Shown: piece by piece, positions 1,497 to 40,234 of the stretch | Layout: the number at the start of each line of letters is the position of its first letter | How positions within the stretch are numbered: position 1 is the stretch's first letter | Source: a virus | Lineage: Duplodnaviria; Caudoviricetes | Length of the DNA: 56,405 nucleotides | Virus record (IMG/VR): IMGVR_UViG_3300037714_000226 | Coordinates: 1-56,405 of that record | Reading direction: 5' to 3' (one strand) | The notes under the pieces: generated by a model | Database searches by the model: none | Told to the model about the DNA's origin: nothing | Seen by the model: the letters and a program-made list of their open reading frames with translations, nothing else | Program-made: the position numbers and the translations under genes

Positions 1497-3017
1497 TCAG
1501 ATACCGCCGGTGATCGTCACCCGGCCGTACCACTCGTCGCGCAGGCGCTTGGTGGCGTAGCGGGTCCGCATCCCCTTGCGGTAGGTCTGATCCTCTGGAT
1601 CGAGGAAGGTGGGGGTCATCTGGAGTGGCACGTACGGCGCGAACACGAAGCCTGCGTCGAGGTACGACTGACCGCGAAGACCCATCAGGATCTGGTTGAA
1701 GCGGAAGAAGGGGTCCTGGTACCCCCACCACTTGTTGGCGAGAGAACCCATCTTGATGATGCCCTGGTGCGAGCTGATGGGCCCGTACGAGGGTGGCACC
1801 ACGGTGCCGTCGAAGGGACCCATCGTGCTTCCGCCGGAGCTGATCCAGGACGGCCTGTAGTCGCCGTGAGTCTGAAGCTGAATGAGTTTGGCCGAGACCT
1901 CTGGTGAGGTGACGAACCAGTTCGCCGGAGCGCGCAGGGTGTTCTTGAAGATGAGGTACGAGACCGCGCTCATTCGGGTGAGGATCGCCCGGATGTGTGA
2001 GATCTCATCGAGACCTGCCGGGATCGTGAAGTCGAAGGTCGCAGTGGTACCAACCGACGCCTGGAAGAGTTGCTCCAGGATGTCACGGTCCAACTCCAGT
2101 GCGATTTCCTGCGAGATGCCAGCGACCAACTCCGTCTCGGCGTCGATGCCGTGGAAGGCACGAAGGTCGTCGGCGGCTTCTGCGCTCCAACGAGCCTTCA
2201 GCTTCCTGGTTGTCGCACGGATTTCCTGGAAGTTGATGTCGATGAAGACGTCCGGAACCTGCTTGTTGGCCTCGGAGTCATAGAAGTAGGTTGCGCGAAC
2301 GACGCGTCCTGCACTTGCGGCCGGAGCGGCCGTGAAGAGGAATCCGGTGATCTGACCGGTTGCGTAGTTGACTGCACCTGCGGTGACATCGCCCGTGAAC
2401 CCGCCTGCTCCGTCATCCACGGCCGACTGAGCGACCGTACCGTCCGCATCGACGTCTTCGACGAGCACGGAGATACCGTTGGCTGCATCGAGGGGTCTGA
2501 CGGGACTGTACTGAAGAATGCGTGCAAGAGCGGTTCCGACACCACCGTAGTTGGTGCCATCGGGAACGGCGAGTTGCTCGTTCTCGATCTTCTCGGAGCT
2601 GTAGAACTTGTCGAAGTTCTGGATGAGGTTCGTGCCGGCAGCCGTCTGTCCCTTCGAACGCCCGTGGACGTACTCGAAGAAGAAGACCGCTCCGACCGGG
2701 GCCGTCATCGGCTGCACCGAGACGATCTCGTTGGCGATGAGGTTCGGGAACACGCGTCGCAGCACGGGGAAGATGTACTTGGTGTACTGTCCCGCGTTGA
2801 CGCTGAGCGTGTCCTCGTGAAGCTGACGACGCATGTCGTCGAGCTGGTTCTCGAAGAGCAGGCTCATCACCCGGCGGGTGTAGTGGTCGTCCACCCCGTC
2901 GAGGAATTGTCCCCACTTGTTCTCCAGGAGGGCGCTGTACGACTCGTCGCGAACCGTGTGCGCCCCCGCCTCTGAAATCATGTGTCGCGCTTCCATTTTA
3001 TTGGTCAGCTCCTTCAC
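1497..3017 (-). CDS. Major capsid protein, T4 gp23-like
   Basis: LRRVFPNLIANEIVSVQPMTAPVG, TRKLKARWSAEAADDLRAFHGIDAETEL, EIALELDRDIL, DAGFVFAPYVPLQ, KGMRTRYA; start may be ATG at 2996. Confidence 0.95.
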   Translation of the reverse strand: MKELTNKMEARHMISEAGAHTVRDESYSALLENKWGQFLDGVDDHYTRRVMSLLFENQLDDMRRQLHEDTLSVNAGQYTKYIFPVLRRVFPNLIANEIVSVQPMTAPVGAVFFFEYVHGRSKGQTAAGTNLIQNFDKFYSSEKIENEQLAVPDGTNYGGVGTALARILQYSPVRPLDAANGISVLVEDVDADGTVAQSAVDDGAGGFTGDVTAGAVNYATGQITGFLFTAAPAASAGRVVRATYFYDSEANKQVPDVFIDINFQEIRATTRKLKARWSAEAADDLRAFHGIDAETELVAGISQEIALELDRDILEQLFQASVGTTATFDFTIPAGLDEISHIRAILTRMSAVSYLIFKNTLRAPANWFVTSPEVSAKLIQLQTHGDYRPSWISSGGSTMGPFDGTVVPPSYGPISSHQGIIKMGSLANKWWGYQDPFFRFNQILMGLRGQSYLDAGFVFAPYVPLQMTPTFLDPEDQTYRKGMRTRYATKRLRDEWYGRVTITGGI

Positions 3018-36055: not shown

Positions 36056-36965
36056 CTCCGAGCACCGGGATCTTGTACTCGCCAGCGATCGCCTTCAGGC
36101 CAACCTTGGTGAGCGCATGCATGACGAAACTCTCGACCTCAGCCTTCGCATGAGTCACGACCCTGTCTGCGCTTTCCTCGAACTGCTTCACGACGAATGG
36201 GGCGTTGCTTTCCAACTCCATGACGACGCGGTCGAGCACTGCAACGATCTGGCGGACGCGGGTCTTTGAGACAGCCGACTTGCCGTCCACGATCTCTTTG
36301 GCTTCGGTCCGTGCGTTCTTGGCCATGTCGACGAGATCGCTGATCTGGTCCTTGAAGCCGTCGCGGATCTTTTTGTACTCCGCCTGCGTATCCTCAGGAA
36401 CGTCTTCCATCCTGATGTGATTTATCCGGCGGATGGTGCACGGGATCCCGCCTCCCATGTTCATCGTGGTGATGGCCTCGGCGTACTGGGCCGCGCTCAT
36501 GTCCACTTCTATGAGCGTGTTTCGCTCGTAGTAGTGATCACTCGACAGGCCATGAGACACCGTCGCCCGCATCACACTGAGTGTGATGTAGTGGTTGTGG
36601 TGGTCGAGATGCGATCCGAACAACCGCGTTGCACCGCTAACCCGATGGAAACTGACAAGCCCGAACGACTCGTGATCCTCTCGAAACTCGTCTCCAGAGT
36701 ACCGCTTGACCGACTCGGTCTTGTACGGAATGCGCTCTGGATCCAGCACCCCATGCTCATAGCGATTGATAGCGTCTTCGAGGGCGTGGACCTCTCCAGT
36801 GATGTCGCTGAGAACCGCGGGCCTGCTCTCAAAAAACCGCCCGGCCTCCTTGCCCTTCTTCGTCCTCTCGTGAAAGTCGTGAACCGTGCCGACGAGACGC
36901 TTGGCCCGTTGAAGGAGAAGCTCTACAGCTTCCTCGCTCCCCTTCTTAATGTCCTCGATCGGCAT
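36036..36965 (-). CDS. Conserved phage hypothetical protein
   Basis: SD AGGAAGG; ESFGLV...LFGS...IEVDMSAAQYAEAITTMNMGGGIPCTI. Confidence 0.8.
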   Translation of the reverse strand: MPIEDIKKGSEEAVELLLQRAKRLVGTVHDFHERTKKGKEAGRFFESRPAVLSDITGEVHALEDAINRYEHGVLDPERIPYKTESVKRYSGDEFREDHESFGLVSFHRVSGATRLFGSHLDHHNHYITLSVMRATVSHGLSSDHYYERNTLIEVDMSAAQYAEAITTMNMGGGIPCTIRRINHIRMEDVPEDTQAEYKKIRDGFKDQISDLVDMAKNARTEAKEIVDGKSAVSKTRVRQIVAVLDRVVMELESNAPFVVKQFEESADRVVTHAKAEVESFVMHALTKVGLKAIAGEYKIPVLGDGEDHE

Positions 36966-36989
36966 TTTGGCCCTTCCTTCCTGCTAACC

Positions 36990-37018
36990 ATTGTTAGCAT
37001 ATGAAGAGCGTTTGTCAA
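36990..37018 (-). promoter_or_regulatory. Sigma70-like promoter, TTGACWADCG family
   Basis: TTGACA-N17-AACAAT; -35 region TTGACAAACGC identical to the copy at 24359. Confidence 0.6.
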
Positions 37019-37023
37019 CAGCA

Positions 37024-39192
37024 TCAAAACCCGAGGGTGGTTTGCTTTTCGTCGACTTCCTGGGGGTTGGCGGTTCGGTGGGTGATTTCCGGCACTCGAT
37101 GCAGTCGTTTGGCGTAGTCGCATCGAGCCTTGGCGATCCGAACGTACGGCTGCTCGTCGGTGTCGGTCAGTTCGATGCCGAGGAAGCTCTTACCCTCCCA
37201 GATCGCCGCTACGCCCGTTGAGGCGACCCCGCAGAACGGATCGAGCACTTTGCCACCCGGAGGTGTCACGAGGCGCACAAGGTGTCGCATGAGTCCAATG
37301 GGTTTCACTGTTGGATGAGTATTCTTTCGCTTCGTGCTCCTACCAGCACCAGCGCGAGGATTGGCTCGACCAGCGGAACCTTCGACACGGGTTGGATCAA
37401 CCCACTGGTGATCGAACTCATCCAACCCCATCTCACGCTCACCGGTGCTCGCTTTTGGAGCAACGACCCCGGTCGGGAGAATGCGCATCAGCAACTCTTC
37501 AGGAAGCGCCGTGATGATGGCCTGGTTCTCCTGGTCGCCGATCCGAAAGTGCTTGGTGTAAGGACCGAGCACACCGCTCAACCCAATCTCGGCGTCGACA
37601 TCCATGATGACCGACACGCCATCAAGTCCATCAACGTCTTCGTCCGAACAGATAACGGCTGACGGCCATCGGCCCTCAGAAGTTAGCCCTATCGTTCTGC
37701 TTCCTGACAAACCGGATCCGTACACGTTATTCGCATCAGCACCGGTCTCGTGATCTCGTACTACAAGTGGCCGGTCGACCCCAGGGAGACGGCACCCTTT
37801 GATGTAGAGCCCGCCAGTGCCGTACTTCAGGATGTTGTCGACCAGTGTTCGGCCCTCGAATGGCTTGCGCGCTAACAGCCACGGCTCCTGATTCTTGAGC
37901 GCGGTGCCCCAACCATCCCACCTCGCAGCCTCTTCAGTCGCAGCAGCGGTGACGACGCCTACCTGATCCGGATTCGAAAAGCCGTAGTTATCGTGTTCGG
38001 TCCGACCCTTCTCGATGTTCGCTCTGCGAACGAAGTCCGGTCGTACACCAACCACCTCACGCTCTTGACCAAGTCTCTTGTCGATGGCCTTGGAGATGTT
38101 GAGGCTTTTGGGAAAACTCGATGCGCTCACCCAAAAACCCATGGTCCGCAATTCGAACCCGGCATCCTCAACAGCACTCGCGAGTCGGTGGATGGTGCGA
38201 TCGGCGCCGAAAACCACAGCGTGAGCCCCTGGCTTCAAAACGCGAAGCACCTCTCGCCATAGACCCACATCGAACGCCACCTTGCTGCCGTCCCACCTCT
38301 GTCCCATGAACCCGGTGGAGGCTAACTTCTGGGGGCGTACGACAAGATCAAACGAGAGTGCCCTTCCTGTGGAACCTTCTACGACGCGGACACGTCGCGA
38401 CTCAAGCACGGACGGCAAACCACCTGTAGCCGGCGTTGTTCGTACAAGCTTCGCGCAAGTCGCCTTCGCCATGGCCGCGAACATGAATGCGCCACCTGTG
38501 GTGAACTGGTCTTCCGCTCCCCTTCCTGCGCCAACCCGAAACACAGGGAAATCTTCTGCTCCCGCGAGTGCGCCTTCAAGGGCCGCAAGCGGGTCAGTGG
38601 TCTGACCTACAACCTCTCCGCCGAGGTTCGTGAAGCACTCCGAGAGAATGGCAAGAACCTCTCGAAGTTCCGGTGGCCCATGAAGTCCGCCAACCTCGAT
38701 GCCTTCCGCCGTAAATGCGCAGCCAACATGAGCGAGCGTATTCAGAACGGAGACATCACCCCCGTCTCCAAGTTCGAGCGCGAAACTGCCGATGTGATGC
38801 GGCGCCTCGGATTCAACATCGAGACATCCGTTGGCATTCGTCAGGCCAATGGACGCTTCGTTGCCGTCTTCGACATCACCATCCCTGATCGACGCATCGC
38901 CATCGAGTGTCACGGTTCCTTTTGGCATGGTGGCCGATGGAGTTGGGAGCGACCCACCAAGGCACAGGCGCGCAATCTCGCCTACGAAGAACGAAAGCGC
39001 GTCCTCGCCATCAACCTCGGCCTGGATCTTCGGGTGTTGTGGGAACACCAGTTCCACGAAGACCCGATTGGGGCTTGCCTTACCGTCTGCCGATAACTCG
39101 TACGGCGGATCGGTCACCAAGGAATCGAAGAGGCTGTCAGGGAACGACTTCAACACCTCACGGCAATCGCCATGCCGAATGTCGATGATCAC
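37024..39192 (-). CDS. Beta-class N6A/N4C DNA methyltransferase with an in-frame insertion of about 257 codons
   Basis: GDCREVL, VTDPPYEL [insert] GFMGQRWD, LRVLKPG, HPTVKP, VLDPFCG, GIEL. Confidence 0.92.
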   Translation of the reverse strand: MIIDIRHGDCREVLKSFPDSLFDSLVTDPPYELSADGKASPNRVFVELVFPQHPKIQAEVDGEDALSFFVGEIARLCLGGSLPTPSATMPKGTVTLDGDASIRDGDVEDGNEASIGLTNANGCLDVESEAPHHIGSFALELGDGGDVSVLNTLAHVGCAFTAEGIEVGGLHGPPELREVLAILSECFTNLGGEVVGQTTDPLAALEGALAGAEDFPVFRVGAGRGAEDQFTTGGAFMFAAMAKATCAKLVRTTPATGGLPSVLESRRVRVVEGSTGRALSFDLVVRPQKLASTGFMGQRWDGSKVAFDVGLWREVLRVLKPGAHAVVFGADRTIHRLASAVEDAGFELRTMGFWVSASSFPKSLNISKAIDKRLGQEREVVGVRPDFVRRANIEKGRTEHDNYGFSNPDQVGVVTAAATEEAARWDGWGTALKNQEPWLLARKPFEGRTLVDNILKYGTGGLYIKGCRLPGVDRPLVVRDHETGADANNVYGSGLSGSRTIGLTSEGRWPSAVICSDEDVDGLDGVSVIMDVDAEIGLSGVLGPYTKHFRIGDQENQAIITALPEELLMRILPTGVVAPKASTGEREMGLDEFDHQWVDPTRVEGSAGRANPRAGAGRSTKRKNTHPTVKPIGLMRHLVRLVTPPGGKVLDPFCGVASTGVAAIWEGKSFLGIELTDTDEQPYVRIAKARCDYAKRLHRVPEITHRTANPQEVDEKQTTLGF
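38329..39096 (+). CDS. Antisense nested endonuclease: two Zn-ribbon repeats plus DUF559/Vsr-like domain (255 aa, CTG start)
   Basis: Frame of track ORF 38680-39096 is open back to TAA 38323; GGAGG (38317-38321) lies 7 nt before CTG 38329; CPSCG...CSRRC, CATCG...FCSREC; SKFE...FD...IECHGSFWHG...LRVLWE. Confidence 0.88.
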   Translation: MGAYDKIKRECPSCGTFYDADTSRLKHGRQTTCSRRCSYKLRASRLRHGREHECATCGELVFRSPSCANPKHREIFCSRECAFKGRKRVSGLTYNLSAEVREALRENGKNLSKFRWPMKSANLDAFRRKCAANMSERIQNGDITPVSKFERETADVMRRLGFNIETSVGIRQANGRFVAVFDITIPDRRIAIECHGSFWHGGRWSWERPTKAQARNLAYEERKRVLAINLGLDLRVLWEHQFHEDPIGACLTVCR

Positions 39193-39443
39193 CCTACAAC
39201 CTCCTCGGGCACGCCTTCGAAACCAGGAAACCCGAGTTGACCGATCTTCGGCATGACGTCGCCAGCGGTTTGTCGCTGACTGCGGTACAGACGCGATGCA
39301 CGTCGAGTCGTCCTAAAGAGTTGTCGGCGTTGCTGATCGAGACACGAGTCCTCATGCCGCACGAGGTTGTGCTTGGCGAGGTTGTGCCCGCGCTCAATTC
39401 TCCTACCGCAGTAGCAACAGCCCCACGACGTTTCGTGCGGCAT
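39189..39443 (-). CDS. Small Zn-finger protein
   Basis: CCYCG...H...C; SD GGAGG; coupled to the methyltransferase start. Confidence 0.65.
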   Translation of the reverse strand: MPHETSWGCCYCGRRIERGHNLAKHNLVRHEDSCLDQQRRQLFRTTRRASRLYRSQRQTAGDVMPKIGQLGFPGFEGVPEEVVG

Positions 39444-39503
39444 CGGGCCTCCATCTGTTGCTTCTTATACGATGGAGTATGTTAGCGCAACTGGTAACGT
39501 CTT

Positions 39504-39519
39504 GTGCAGACGTCTGCAC
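39504..39519. repeat. 16-bp palindrome GTGCAGACGTCTGCAC, copy 4
   Basis: Exact copy abutting the stop codon at 39520-39522. Confidence 0.97.
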
Positions 39520-39900
39520 CTACCAGGAGTCGCGATTTGCCGGGTCGCGGGCTCGGCGACGGCGCTTCTTGCGTGGACGATCATCCGGATTGCCGGAACT
39601 CCTGTCCATGTCAGATCCGAAGTCGGACCGGTGCCCGCCCCCGCTGCCGCCCCTGGGGACGCGCTCGTGGGCCTCGTTGACCCTGAGATCGCGTCCTTGG
39701 ACCTCTTGGCCGTCGAGGGCCTCTATGGCCTCGTTGACGTCCATGGTGGTCGTTACGAAGCCGAAGCCACGAGACTGGCCTGTGTCCCTGTCCTTGATGA
39801 TGACGACCTCATCAGCCTGGACACCGAGAGATGCGACGTGAGCCTTCAACTCGTCGTCGGAGATGGAAAAGGGGAGATTCCCCACAAACAGTCTACTCAC
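39520..39900 (-). CDS. RRM (RNP-1) RNA-binding protein
   Basis: GTG 39900 with SD GAGGAG; RNP2 LFVGNL, DRDTGQSRGFGFV RNP1, GRDLRVNEA, Gly/Arg tail. Confidence 0.92.
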   Translation of the reverse strand: MSRLFVGNLPFSISDDELKAHVASLGVQADEVVIIKDRDTGQSRGFGFVTTTMDVNEAIEALDGQEVQGRDLRVNEAHERVPRGGSGGGHRSDFGSDMDRSSGNPDDRPRKKRRRRARDPANRDSW

Positions 39901-39913
39901 CGCTACGTCTCCT

Positions 39914-40234
39914 CTAGAAAGAACCAGACCGAATGATATGCGAATCGGTCTGGTCGCCAAGGTCGATTGCGCCGAGCGCCGAGTCGACCGTCGTGTACTG
40001 CGTGATCTTGCCGAACCTGCCGCCATTGGCTTTCCTGACGGTGACCGCGCTACCCATCTTGTTCTTCGCCAGCTCGTAGGTGTGGCCAGCGACGTTGACG
40101 TGAACCCAGCCGCCCTTCTTGAGCGCTGCGACGACGTCCTGTGAACCCTGCTTCACCTCTTGCAGGTCGGAATCCTTTTCGGAGACCCCCGACGCCTCAT
40201 TGAGCGCCGTGCTGAGCTGGTCTGAGTATCCCAT
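39914..40234 (-). CDS. Small probable internal head protein
   Basis: SD AGGAG; N-terminal LNE, VSE, LQE sites followed by a basic domain. Confidence 0.7.
   Translation of the reverse strand: MGYSDQLSTALNEASGVSEKDSDLQEVKQGSQDVVAALKKGGWVHVNVAGHTYELAKNKMGSAVTVRKANGGRFGKITQYTTVDSALGAIDLGDQTDSHIIRSGSF

What the first reader, a model, noticed from the sequence alone, without database searches (positions are those of the whole stretch)
38317..39098. Endonuclease gene inserted antisense and codon-aligned inside an unbroken methyltransferase, with no intein or intron
Seen: the methyltransferase frame has about 257 extra codons between DPPYEL and (AST)GFMG. The opposite strand of exactly this stretch encodes a 255-aa Zn-ribbon plus DUF559/Vsr-like nuclease. 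Its stop TAA (39094-39096) is the complement of the Leu codon TTA of DPPYEL, and it starts at CTG 38329, 7 nt after GGAGG. TAACT occurs at both ends (38323, 39094), 771 nt apart, a multiple of three. There are no Hint motifs and no spare sequence for a ribozyme. Inference: a GC-rich gene rarely uses TTA/CTA/TCA, so its in-register antisense is stop-free, letting the nuclease sit in a tolerant loop next to the catalytic motif without splicing. Alternatives: ribosomal bypass between the matching UUA codons, DNA or RNA excision, or a nested restriction-modification-like pair.
Basis: partly seen in the sequence, partly recalled or inferred. Interest (0 to 1): 0.9.

Follow-up and report, generated by a model that had tools for sequence, protein, structure and literature searches.

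The report
Backwards nuclease gene hidden inside methylase gene
A selfish DNA-cutting enzyme gene sits backwards inside a phage DNA-methylase gene and avoids three codons, so the methylase can still be read straight through it; this is a reverse-strand version of a trick first described in 2023-2025.

Summary
The 722-aa PF01555 methyltransferase (37024..39192, -) has about 258 extra codons between DPPYE and GFMG. The + strand of that stretch (38329..39096) encodes a 255-aa double-Zn-ribbon, Vsr-like nuclease, codon-aligned with the methylase frame.

It is not a one-off. HE-based searches found 32 related metagenomic/viral loci (about 20 lineages) with the same architecture. None has a TTA, CTA or TCA codon in the nuclease frame, even at 39-47% GC, whereas free-standing homologues carry 8-13. 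GC bias alone would leave this frame open only about 5% of the time in this phage, so read-through of the methylase is under selection.

The nuclease frame is under purifying selection (dN/dS 0.14-0.26). The methylase-frame insert peptide is not conserved and AlphaFold2 predicts it to be disordered. Presence of the insert is patchy on the methylase tree. Nearly identical nucleases sit in diverged methylases, and a flank motif travels with the insert, which indicates homing.

No intron (Rfam) or intein (Pfam) signal was found. The TAACT terminal repeat is peculiar to this window.

The closest precedent is the ShiLan domain (2023/2025), with a hidden HNH in another frame of the same strand. This is an antisense, Vsr-like variant.

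Methylase activity and nuclease expression are untested. The window's nuclease has only a CTG start.

The parts
37024..39192 (-). Continuous 722-aa beta-class N6/N4 DNA methyltransferase ORF, including the insert
   Evidence: ORF. PF01555 E 9e-21. Identical protein P0001 in the database.
39097..39192 (-). Methyltransferase N-terminal segment, aa 1-32, ending in catalytic motif IV (DPPY) plus E
   Evidence: Translation. D28, P29, P30 and Y31 are invariant in 53 homologues. pLDDT 95-98.
38326..39096 (.). Inserted element of 771 nt: about 258 extra codons in the methyltransferase frame (aa 33 to about 293), equal to the stop-to-stop nuclease frame on the other strand
   Evidence: Comparison with insertion-free P0002, P0003 and P0004. 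Stop-to-stop frame. pLDDT below 50 over aa 38-293. The peptide in this frame is poorly conserved.
38329..39096 (+). Homing-endonuclease gene: 255 aa plus TAA, probably starting at CTG. The stop overlaps the methyltransferase Leu33 codon.
   Evidence: The family alignment keeps all invariant residues. dN/dS in this frame is 0.14-0.26 among relatives. AF2 mean pLDDT 83.6.
38317..38321 (+). GGAGG Shine-Dalgarno-like sequence 7 nt before CTG 38329; it also encodes part of A-S-T in the methyltransferase
   Evidence: Sequence. Relatives have ATG or GTG 4-8 codons before the first Cys, where the window has GCG. Function is inferred.
38359..38571 (+). N-terminal double Zn-ribbon module (C11/C14/C33/C37 and C54/C57/C77/C81), the presumed DNA-binding domain
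   Evidence: Cysteines invariant or nearly so in 31 sequences. The same module is fused to LAGLIDADG, HNH or DUF559 domains in other loci.
38761..39093 (+). Vsr-like nuclease domain (about aa 145-255) with invariant D182, E193, H200
   Evidence: Pfam Vsr and MTES_1575 hits below cutoff. Foldseek: 1cw0 E 1.3e-4, 1vsr, 3r3p (I-Bth0305I), each with probability 1.00. Profile versus PDB: 1cw0 E 9e-4.
37024..38322 (-). Methyltransferase C-terminal part (GFMG...WD, TRD, motif I region DPFCGVASTG)
   Evidence: pLDDT mostly 86-98 from aa 295 on.

Best explanation
The 771-nt insert is a minimal mobile homing-endonuclease (HE) element. It consists of one gene for a double-Zn-ribbon, Vsr-like nuclease and nothing else.

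The element lies on the strand opposite to a phage beta-class DNA methyltransferase, in exact codon register. It sits in the variable loop between catalytic motif IV (DPPY) and the FMG..WD segment.

It is removed neither from the RNA nor from the protein. Ribosomes read the methyltransferase straight through it, producing an enzyme with a loop of about 260 residues that is unconserved and probably disordered.

In this register a host-frame stop can arise only from a TTA, CTA or TCA codon of the nuclease, and all three have synonyms. The nuclease can therefore keep any amino-acid sequence while leaving the host frame open, and selection enforces this.

The nuclease, made from its own weak start on the antisense strand (CTG here, ATG or GTG in relatives), presumably cuts insert-free alleles at the DPPY(E/G)x|FMG coding site. 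The element is then copied in by repair, together with a few flanking codons.

Shown here: the nesting, the register, the stop avoidance, purifying selection on the nuclease frame, patchy and horizontally transferred distribution, and the absence of known intron or intein signals.

Inferred: that the methyltransferase still works, that the nuclease cleaves the empty site, and how the nuclease is transcribed and translated.
For: 1. Architecture recurs. Searches with the HE found 33 rows (the window plus 32 loci, about 20 lineages below 70% HE identity). In each, the HE stop overlaps the Leu or Ser codon 2-4 residues after DPPY, in codon register, with FMG..WD just upstream of the HE start.

2. 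Stop avoidance.
- 0 TTA/CTA/TCA codons in 33 of 33 rows, including HEs at GC 0.39-0.47 (L018, L029/30, L051/53, L057, L026). Per-locus chance is 1e-3 or less for many.
- The other alternative frames hold a mean of 4-16 stops.
- Free-standing homologues use these codons: L055 13 in 260, L056 10 in 265, L032 8 in 264.

3. The HE frame is the selected one. dN/dS is 0.14-0.26, against 0.45-1.2 for the same DNA read in the methyltransferase frame. HE amino-acid identity exceeds antisense-peptide identity in every comparison with the window.

4. Nuclease fold. AF2 mean pLDDT is 83.6. Best PDB matches are Vsr (1cw0, 1vsr) and the homing endonuclease I-Bth0305I (3r3p).

5. Mobility.
- On the methyltransferase tree, 24 insert-bearing rows need at least 15 gains or losses, at least 8 of them forced by supported branches.
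- The window's sister P0002 (support 99) lacks the insert.
- L024 and L028 have 99% identical HEs (dS 0.016) in methyltransferases with dS 1.03 and dN 0.23.
- A WDG[SQT]K flank motif occurs in 12 of 24 insert-bearing alleles and 0 of 114 insert-free alleles.

6. Tolerant site. 20 of 117 homologues have 9-34 extra residues there. In AF2 the core has pLDDT 86-98 and the insert is below 50. Methyltransferase exons of insert-bearing alleles have dN/dS 0.17-0.35.

7. No intron or intein. There are no Rfam hits at E<=10 and no Pfam family other than PF01555 in the 722-aa protein.
Against: - No expression or activity data exist. No RNA run holds the stretch.
- The window's HE has no ATG, GTG or TTG at the position where nearly all relatives have one (GCG instead). 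Only CTG 38329 remains, so this copy may be poorly translated or starting to decay.
- No sigma-70-like promoter was found for the + strand.
- Pfam hits of the window's HE are below the curated cutoffs.
- Purifying selection on methyltransferase exons may partly predate the insertions.
- Stop avoidance proves selection for translation through the insert, not that the product methylates DNA.
- Codon-usage expectations come from small flank samples (53-685 codons).
- Three of the insert-bearing proteins (P0005, P0108, P0121) were found through a protein database that lists only open frames. The 32 loci found by HE similarity carry no such bias.
Confidence: 0.75

Rival explanations
1. The open frame is kept not to preserve methyltransferase function but to keep ribosomes on the mRNA. 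This would avoid Rho-type polarity or loss of translational coupling for the methyltransferase C-part and downstream genes of this long minus-strand operon. The fused protein itself may be inactive or irrelevant.
For: - Nearly all genes in the window are on the - strand.
- In relatives where the HE lies upstream of the methyltransferase (type B), the HE antisense frame is still largely open. In L039 it forms a 315-aa ORF that starts with a duplicated methyltransferase start, and its stop overlaps the true methyltransferase ATG.
- ATG of the FMG motif could serve as an internal restart; a gene caller used it for P0006 and P0008.
Against: - Methyltransferase exons on both sides stay intact, with catalytic motifs conserved and dN/dS 0.17-0.35, in insert-bearing alleles.
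- The 32-aa N-part carries the essential DPPY motif. In type A it can reach the rest of the protein only through the read-through frame.
- Type B loci are about 60% GC, where open antisense frames are less improbable.
Confidence: 0.13
2. The insert is removed before or during translation, by an unrecognised ribozyme or intron, or by ribosomal bypass between the two UUA codons within the AGUUA repeats.
For: - The 5-nt repeat TAACT lies at both ends, 771 nt apart.
- The insertion is next to a catalytic motif, a typical place for introns and inteins.
Against: - No Rfam family at E<=10 in the window region, and none at E<=1 in 10 related loci.
- The insert RNA folds no better than shuffles: z -1.4, with 2 of 20 shuffles folding as well.
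- The repeat is absent in relatives (2 of 33 rows).
- There is no stop codon after the putative take-off codon.
- If the insert were skipped there would be no selection against stops in it, yet 33 of 33 rows have none.
Confidence: 0.03
3. The open antisense frame is a by-product of GC-rich codon usage. The methyltransferase is simply a gene disrupted by a free-standing HE and on its way to decay.
For: - Window GC is about 58-60%.
- Long antisense ORFs are common in the window.
- The chance of an open 257-codon frame is about 5%.
Against: - Relatives at GC 0.39-0.47 are equally stop-free, while non-nested homologues at similar GC have 8-13 such codons.
- The product of per-lineage chances is vanishingly small.
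- No frameshifts or stops occur in the methyltransferase exons of any nested locus.
Confidence: 0.02
4. The nuclease is domesticated. Together with the methyltransferase it would form a nested restriction-modification-like or regulatory pair, with antisense transcription coupling their expression, rather than being a selfish homing element.
For: - This nuclease family is constantly associated with this methyltransferase family in three arrangements: nested, divergent upstream, and same-strand upstream.
- Vsr-like folds also occur in restriction enzymes (AbaSI and PvuRts1I hits).
Against: - Distribution is patchy, HE copies near-identical to each other sit in diverged methyltransferases, and flank co-conversion is seen.
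- The same Zn-ribbon module is swapped onto LAGLIDADG and HNH nuclease domains, as is typical of homing endonucleases.
- Most methyltransferases of the family lack any such nuclease (114 of 138 rows).
Confidence: 0.05

Closest known systems
ShiLan domain / 'hidden HNH' insertion elements in actinobacteriophage DNA methylases (Gosselin et al. 2023, PMC9957025, passages read; Arsenault, Gosselin & Gogarten 2025, PMC11855218, abstract, sections 1, 3, 4 and legends read)
   Same: - An insertion at a conserved site of a phage DNA methylase. The window's methylase finds cluster E and F1 mycobacteriophage methylases at about 39% identity.
- No stops when read in the host frame, and no detectable intron or intein.
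- The in-frame peptide is unrecognisable and predicted as a low-confidence loop.
- A second, overlapping ORF encodes a Zn-finger homing endonuclease.
- Distribution is disjunct, and related free-standing nucleases sit upstream of methylases in other phages.
   Different: - The ShiLan HE is an HNH in the third frame of the same strand (195 aa, GTG start 18 bp in). Here it is a Vsr-like nuclease on the opposite strand in exact codon register.
- Whether the insertion site is the same was not determined.
- The papers do not report codon-level stop avoidance or an antisense case ('antisense' occurs 0 times in PMC9957025; PMC11855218 describes only alternate frames of the same strand in the parts read).
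- Their supplements and repository were not seen.
Vsr-like (EDxHD) homing endonucleases, e.g. I-Bth0305I (Dassa et al. 2009, PMC2677866, passages read; Taylor et al. 2011, PMC3239194, listing and abstract only)
   Same: - Vsr-like catalytic fold.
- Phage-borne and targeting conserved genes.
- Found in several contexts, including stand-alone inserts that break genes.
   Different: [quoted passage not shown]
- None is described as antisense and translated through.
- The N-terminal double Zn-ribbon module here was not compared with theirs.
Fractured / genes-in-pieces arrangements caused by free-standing homing endonucleases (Dassa 2009; Friedrich et al. 2007, recalled and not read)
   Same: A homing endonuclease invades a conserved site of a phage gene without an intron. 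Relatives of this HE (type B loci) accompany methyltransferases broken by stops at the same DPPYG|xxFMG site.
   Different: In the window the host ORF is not broken; it is continuous through the HE.
Inteins and group I introns carrying homing endonucleases
   Same: The same biological problem and the same kind of target: a conserved site next to a catalytic motif. They also share a homing life style.
   Different: No Hint domain, no conserved in-frame peptide and no ribozyme signal. The host tolerates the insert instead of splicing it out.

Membership tests
Beta-class N6/N4 DNA methyltransferase (PF01555) | Pfam N6_N4_Mtase match above the gathering score | tested here: met
   E 9e-21, 75.3 bits against a cutoff of 26.7.
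Beta-class N6/N4 DNA methyltransferase (PF01555) | Motif IV (DPPY) N-terminal and an AdoMet motif I region C-terminal | tested here: met
   D28, P29, P30 and Y31 are invariant. D651, F653 and G655 are invariant in 53 sequences. The window reads DPFCGVASTG, as does the insert-free P0002.
Beta-class N6/N4 DNA methyltransferase (PF01555) | Methyltransferase activity | not testable with these tools
   No assay was possible.
Vsr-like / EDxHD homing endonucleases (I-Bth0305I family) | Vsr-type nuclease fold | tested here: met
   Foldseek 1cw0 E 1.3e-4, 1vsr 3.1e-4, 3r3p_B TM(target) 0.68, all with probability 1.00. Profile versus PDB: 1cw0 E 9e-4, 3r3p E 0.05. Pfam Vsr and MTES_1575 hits are below cutoff for the window. 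Relative L076 passes DUF559.
Vsr-like / EDxHD homing endonucleases (I-Bth0305I family) | Conserved catalytic acidic and His residues | tested here: inconclusive
   D182, E193 and H200 are invariant in 31 sequences. Their residue-by-residue mapping onto Vsr D51/H69 or onto the EDxHD motif was not made.
Vsr-like / EDxHD homing endonucleases (I-Bth0305I family) | Site-specific cleavage of the insert-free allele | not testable with these tools
   No assay was possible.
Vsr-like / EDxHD homing endonucleases (I-Bth0305I family) | Mobile, patchy distribution with horizontal transfer | tested here: met
   At least 15 changes on the tree. HE 99% identical in methyltransferases with dS 1.03. Flank motif in 12 of 24 insert-bearing against 0 of 114 insert-free alleles.
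ShiLan-type hidden-endonuclease insertion in phage methylase | Insertion in a phage DNA methylase that adds no stop in the host frame | tested here: met
ShiLan-type hidden-endonuclease insertion in phage methylase | No intein or intron signature; in-frame peptide unrecognisable and low-confidence | tested here: met
ShiLan-type hidden-endonuclease insertion in phage methylase | HNH endonuclease in an alternate frame of the same strand | tested here: not met
   Here the ORF is on the opposite strand, codon-aligned, and has a Vsr-like fold.
Group I / II intron | Ribozyme core detectable; host frame usually closed | tested here: not met
   No Rfam hit at E<=10. Fold z-score -1.4. The frame is open and kept open by selection.
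Intein | Hint domain blocks; terminal HN followed by C/S/T; conserved in-frame protein | tested here: not met
   No Pfam Hint or intein family. Insert ends vary (..LAST..SGSG..SSRG etc.). In-frame identity is 16-42% with dN/dS 0.45-1.2.
Programmed translational bypass (T4 gene 60 type) | Matched take-off and landing codons, a stop after take-off, and a gap that need not be open | tested here: not met
   The codon after UUA is UCG, not a stop. The terminal repeat is absent in relatives. The gap is kept stop-free.

The most novel reading that the evidence does not exclude
Codon-register antisense nesting may be a general third way, beside introns and inteins, for a homing endonuclease to live inside a conserved gene.

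The element would use only synonymous codon choice (never TTA, CTA or TCA) to stay invisible to the host reading frame. The host enzyme would work with a free-evolving, disordered loop of about 260 residues next to its catalytic motif.

The same nuclease lineage switches between this state, fractured-gene states and free-standing states, and swaps nuclease domains on a constant Zn-ribbon targeting module.

If this is general, many 'long' phage proteins with unalignable inserts may hide antisense mobile genes that gene callers cannot see.
Probability: 0.55. Interest if true: 0.8.

Novelty: new variant of a known kind. Interest (0 to 1): 0.68.

Why it matters
Homing endonucleases are thought to survive in essential or conserved genes by hitch-hiking on self-splicing introns or inteins, or else by breaking the gene into pieces. 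The ShiLan papers hinted at a further solution, in which the host simply translates through the element.

This window and about 20 independent lineages show that solution on the opposite strand. They also give the first codon-level evidence, as far as my searches reach, that selection keeps the host frame open: three codons are completely absent even in AT-rich relatives.

This matters in four ways:

- **Annotation.** Gene callers report either the long fusion or the nuclease, never both. P0001 was called as the fusion, while P0006 and P0008 are truncated methylases.
- **Surveys of mobile elements.** It offers a simple, searchable signature: an antisense, codon-aligned ORF with an HE domain and no TTA/CTA/TCA.
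- **Protein engineering.** It marks a loop beside the DPPY motif that accepts about 260 arbitrary residues.
- **Overlapping genes.** It is a natural example of two long ORFs on opposite strands where only one is constrained in sequence.

Tried and rejected
- Megablast of window 36900-39500 against GenBank phages found no match.
- tblastn of the HE against GenBank phages found only distant (22-24% identical) free-standing hypothetical or endonuclease genes in mycobacteriophages, a Microcystis phage and Lak phages. No nested case exists in that collection at E<=1e-3.
- Rfam found nothing in the window region at E<=10 or in 10 type-B and other loci at E<=1.
- The promoter scan found 0 sigma-70-like sites. 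The two terminator-like sites do not exceed the shuffle expectation.
- The RNA fold of the insert in the methyltransferase sense has z -1.4.
- Sequencing runs: no RNA holder is listed. Contigs of four sediment runs were laid on 36500-39700. They were fragmentary with no joints, so there is no information on an insert-free allele of this phage. Single contigs do bridge both insert junctions.
- A search for DNA of the insert-free sister P0002 in viral contigs found none. Exact DNA boundaries for the window therefore rest on protein comparison, and on L005 versus L003/L004.
- The idea that the TAACT repeat marks a target-site duplication or hop sites was rejected.
- I first suspected that type-B loci were true introns with an antisense HE. 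This was rejected: the 'exon 1' lies next to 'exon 2' with only 9-17 nt between them, and the HE lies upstream.
- L019 first looked like a nested locus with a broken frame. It contains an N and joins an insert-free sequence to the inside of the HE, so I read it as an assembly chimera.
- Supplements and the GitHub repository of the ShiLan papers were not seen. They may list further hidden endonucleases, possibly including antisense ones.
Full report
**1. The observation**

The window is a 56-kb viral contig (IMG/VR-type record, CheckV completeness 29%). Almost all long ORFs are on the - strand.

ORF 37024..39192 (-) encodes 722 aa with a PF01555 N6/N4 DNA-methylase match (E 9e-21). Its closest relative in the protein collection, P0002 (464 aa, 75% identical), reads DPPYEYGFMNQRWDG. 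The window reads DPPYEL, then about 258 residues, then ASTGFMGQRWDG.

On the + strand the same stretch is open from stop to stop (38326..39096). It translates to a protein with four CxxC pairs and an ...IECHGSFWHGG... nuclease motif.

- TAA 39094-39096 is opposite the Leu33 codon TTA.
- GGAGG is at 38317-38321.
- CTG is at 38329.
- TAACT is at 38323 and 39094.

There is no ATG, GTG or TTG before 38680.

**2. Chance**

In the window's own 31 long minus-strand ORFs, TTA, CTA and TCA together make up 1.16% of codons. A 257-codon codon-aligned antisense window is stop-free in 453 of 8391 sliding windows (5.4%). On its own, the case is therefore only mildly unusual.

**3. Relatives**

Two further long methylases among the first 120 hits (P0005, P0108), and P0121 from a search with the insert peptide, carry homologous inserts at the same site.

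Two 'truncated' methylases that start at the M of FMN (P0006, P0008) turned out to be gene-caller choices. Their contigs (L003, L004) hold the same nested arrangement, with the methylase frame open across it and the nuclease starting at ATG or GTG.

Searching viral and metagenome contigs with an alignment of three nucleases returned 84 loci. I re-mapped them by local tblastn and classified the 56 rows with a nearly full-length nuclease.

In 33 rows (the window plus 32 loci, after dropping L001, L007 and L009, which duplicate the window, L003 and L004):
- the nuclease stop overlaps the Leu or Ser codon 2-4 residues after DPPY;
- the nuclease is in codon register with the methylase;
- the FMG..WD motif follows just beyond the nuclease start.

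L034, L043, L049 and L068 are further nested cases with slightly different junctions, or with one junction off the contig. I did not count them.

**4. Selection for an open host frame**

All 33 rows have zero TTA/CTA/TCA codons in the nuclease frame. The nucleases contain 12-23 Leu and 10-23 Ser, and range from 39% to 65% GC.

Using the Leu and Ser codon usage of each locus's own methylase exons, the chance of zero is:
- about 0.003-0.01 for the window;
- 1e-3 or less for L012, L017, L018, L022, L024, L026, L029/30, L035/36, L044/45 and L057.

The four other alternative frames carry on average 4, 15, 10 and 16 stops.

Homologues that are not nested do use these codons:
- L056, same strand, just upstream of an uninterrupted methylase: 10 in 265.
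- L032, divergent upstream: 8 in 264.
- L055: 13 in 260.

Avoidance of host-frame stops is therefore an evolved property of the nested state and not a by-product of GC content. It also means ribosomes do read through the insert, which argues against splicing, bypass or excision.

**5. Which strand is 'the gene'**

In codon alignments of the nucleases, dN/dS is 0.14-0.26 in the nuclease frame at moderate divergence. It is 0.45-1.2 for the same DNA read in the methylase frame.

The window's nuclease is 33-53% identical to relatives, while the antisense peptide is 16-42% identical, lower in every comparison.

AlphaFold2 with 31 sequences gives a confident nuclease model (mean pLDDT 83.6). Its best PDB matches are Vsr (1cw0, 1vsr) and the catalytic domain of the homing endonuclease I-Bth0305I (3r3p). 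A sequence profile finds Vsr at E 9e-4.

The window's copy keeps all invariant residues, including the eight Zn-ribbon cysteines and D182, E193 and H200.

The N-terminal Zn-ribbon module (46-55% identical) is joined in other loci to other nuclease domains:
- LAGLIDADG (L072-L074);
- HNH (L062, L064, L069);
- DUF559 (L076, itself nested in a methylase).

This is the domain shuffling typical of homing endonucleases.

**6. Mobility**

On a FastTree of methylase C-parts (138 rows; the insert itself was not among the columns), the 24 insert-bearing rows need at least 15 gains or losses, at least 8 of them forced by well-supported branches. The window's sister P0002 lacks the insert. The insert-free rows were the top hits to the window's methylase, so the sampling is uneven.

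L024 and L028 carry 99% identical nucleases (dS 0.016) in methylases whose C-parts differ by dS 1.03 and dN 0.23. L003 and L004 show the same pattern, less extreme.

Twelve of 24 insert-bearing alleles, scattered over the tree, read WDG[SQT]K after FMG. None of 114 insert-free alleles does. This looks like co-conversion of the flank.

L019 appears to be an assembly chimera, containing an N, of an insert-free allele (DPPYEISFMGRKWDASG...) and an insert-bearing allele from one population.

**7. The host protein**

The site is a natural length-variable loop: of the 117 homologues in which both motifs were found, 20 have 9-34 extra residues there.

AlphaFold2 of the 722-aa protein with 53 homologues folds residues 1-32 and 295 onwards with pLDDT mostly 86-98. 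It leaves 38-293 below 50.

Methylase exons of insert-bearing alleles have dN/dS 0.17-0.35.

No intein or other domain is detected in the insert. No Rfam family is found, and the RNA shows no unusual stability.

**8. Points specific to this window**

Nearly all relatives have ATG or GTG 4-8 codons before the first cysteine. The window has GCG there, leaving only CTG 38329 (position -10, where L011, L012 and L015 have TTG), preceded by a good GGAGG. This copy may be weakly translated or beginning to decay, but the rest of the ORF is intact.

The TAACT repeat is not found in relatives.

**9. Comparison with what is known**

A full-text search turned up the ShiLan domain. It is a 202-aa insertion in actinophage methylases that adds no stops and is neither intron nor intein. 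[quoted passage not shown] It has a predicted looping in-frame structure, a disjunct distribution, and free-standing relatives upstream of other methylases.

The window's methylase belongs to the same broad family as cluster E and F1 mycobacteriophage methylases (about 39% identity).

I found no description of an antisense, codon-aligned, translated-through homing endonuclease. The listing of PMC5374615 mentions an antisense endonuclease ORF in a cox2 gene that is split, not read through (listing only).

I therefore file this as a new variant of a recently recognised kind. It comes with stronger evidence for selection on the open frame than has been published for that kind, as far as I could see without supplements.

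**10. A side finding (type B)**

In eleven rows (seven distinct sequences: L031/33, L037, L038/39/41, L040, L042, L050/52, L054) the nuclease lies just upstream of the methylase on the opposite strand.

The methylase carries, exactly at the type-A site, a 9-17-nt insert that begins with a stop codon (DPPYG|TGA/TAG/TAA...|G-x-x-FMG). It is in varying frames.

The next piece ends at the conserved ...EPxxVGRKP motif, often with an ATGA overlap to the following ORF.

These look like fractured methylase genes. Whether the pieces work together is unknown.

**11. Limits**

There are no expression, size or activity data. DNA for P0005, P0108 and P0121 could not be read. Trees were built with FastTree only. 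Codon expectations rest on small samples.

Noticed in passing
L031/L033, L037, L038/L039/L041, L040, L042, L050/L052, L054 (methylase sense strand; e.g. L031 around 3871 of the reverse strand): Type-B relatives. The nuclease lies just upstream of the methylase on the opposite strand. The methylase has a 9-17-nt insert starting with a stop codon exactly at the DPPYG|xxFMG site (lengths 11, 11, 15, 12, 11, 17, 9; frames differ). The insert looks like a degenerate duplication of CCNTACGG. The N-piece still shows pN below pS between lineages.
   Followed up: partly
L040, L039, L054, L031, L037, L042 (end of the methylase second piece): The second methylase piece stops right at the conserved ...EPxxVG(R/V)KP motif, often with an ATGA stop/start overlap. 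In L040 the next ORF restarts with MRVIHVLRKPLSEG..., duplicating the motif. In L039 that piece lies upstream of the nuclease instead. These may be multi-piece or permuted methylases.
   Followed up: partly
L039 2983..3930 (-): The antisense-of-nuclease ORF (315 aa) begins with a duplicated copy of the methylase's first 17 residues. Its stop overlaps the true methylase ATG, which suggests translational coupling through the nuclease's antisense strand.
   Followed up: no
L072-L074, L062/L064/L069, L076/L077: The same double Zn-ribbon N-terminal module (46-55% identical) is fused to LAGLIDADG, HNH or DUF559 nuclease domains. L076/L077 are again nested antisense in a methylase with an open 882-aa host frame.
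   Followed up: partly
L034 (nuclease 1678..2463): A nested case in which the host reads DPPYGLEFMNLK... before the insert and ...AQIEFMGKEWD after it. The EFM target segment is duplicated on both sides.
   Followed up: no
window 39520..40026 (-) and L003 2291..2656, L004 2320..2676: A small RRM-like RNA-binding protein gene (..LFVGNLPFS...RGFGFV..) lies just upstream of the methylase in the window and in L003/L004. The motif was recognised by eye; no family search was run.
   Followed up: no
window 39189..39443 (-): A small Cys/His-rich ORF (..CCYCGRRIERGHNLAKHNLVRHEDSC..) ends immediately upstream of the methylase start, with its stop codon abutting the methylase start codon. A similar ORF is seen in L003/L004.
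   Followed up: no
L023 first ~35 nt; L019: L023 starts with what looks like sequencing-adaptor sequence, recognised from memory. L019 contains an N and joins an insert-free allele to the interior of the nuclease. Both are assembly artefacts to keep out of counts.
   Followed up: partly
window 37024..37100 region of the methylase (motif I): The AdoMet motif reads DPFCGVASTG in the window, and GVASGG in insert-free P0002, instead of the usual DPFxGSGST. The deviation is shared with the insert-free sister, so it is unrelated to the insert.
   Followed up: no
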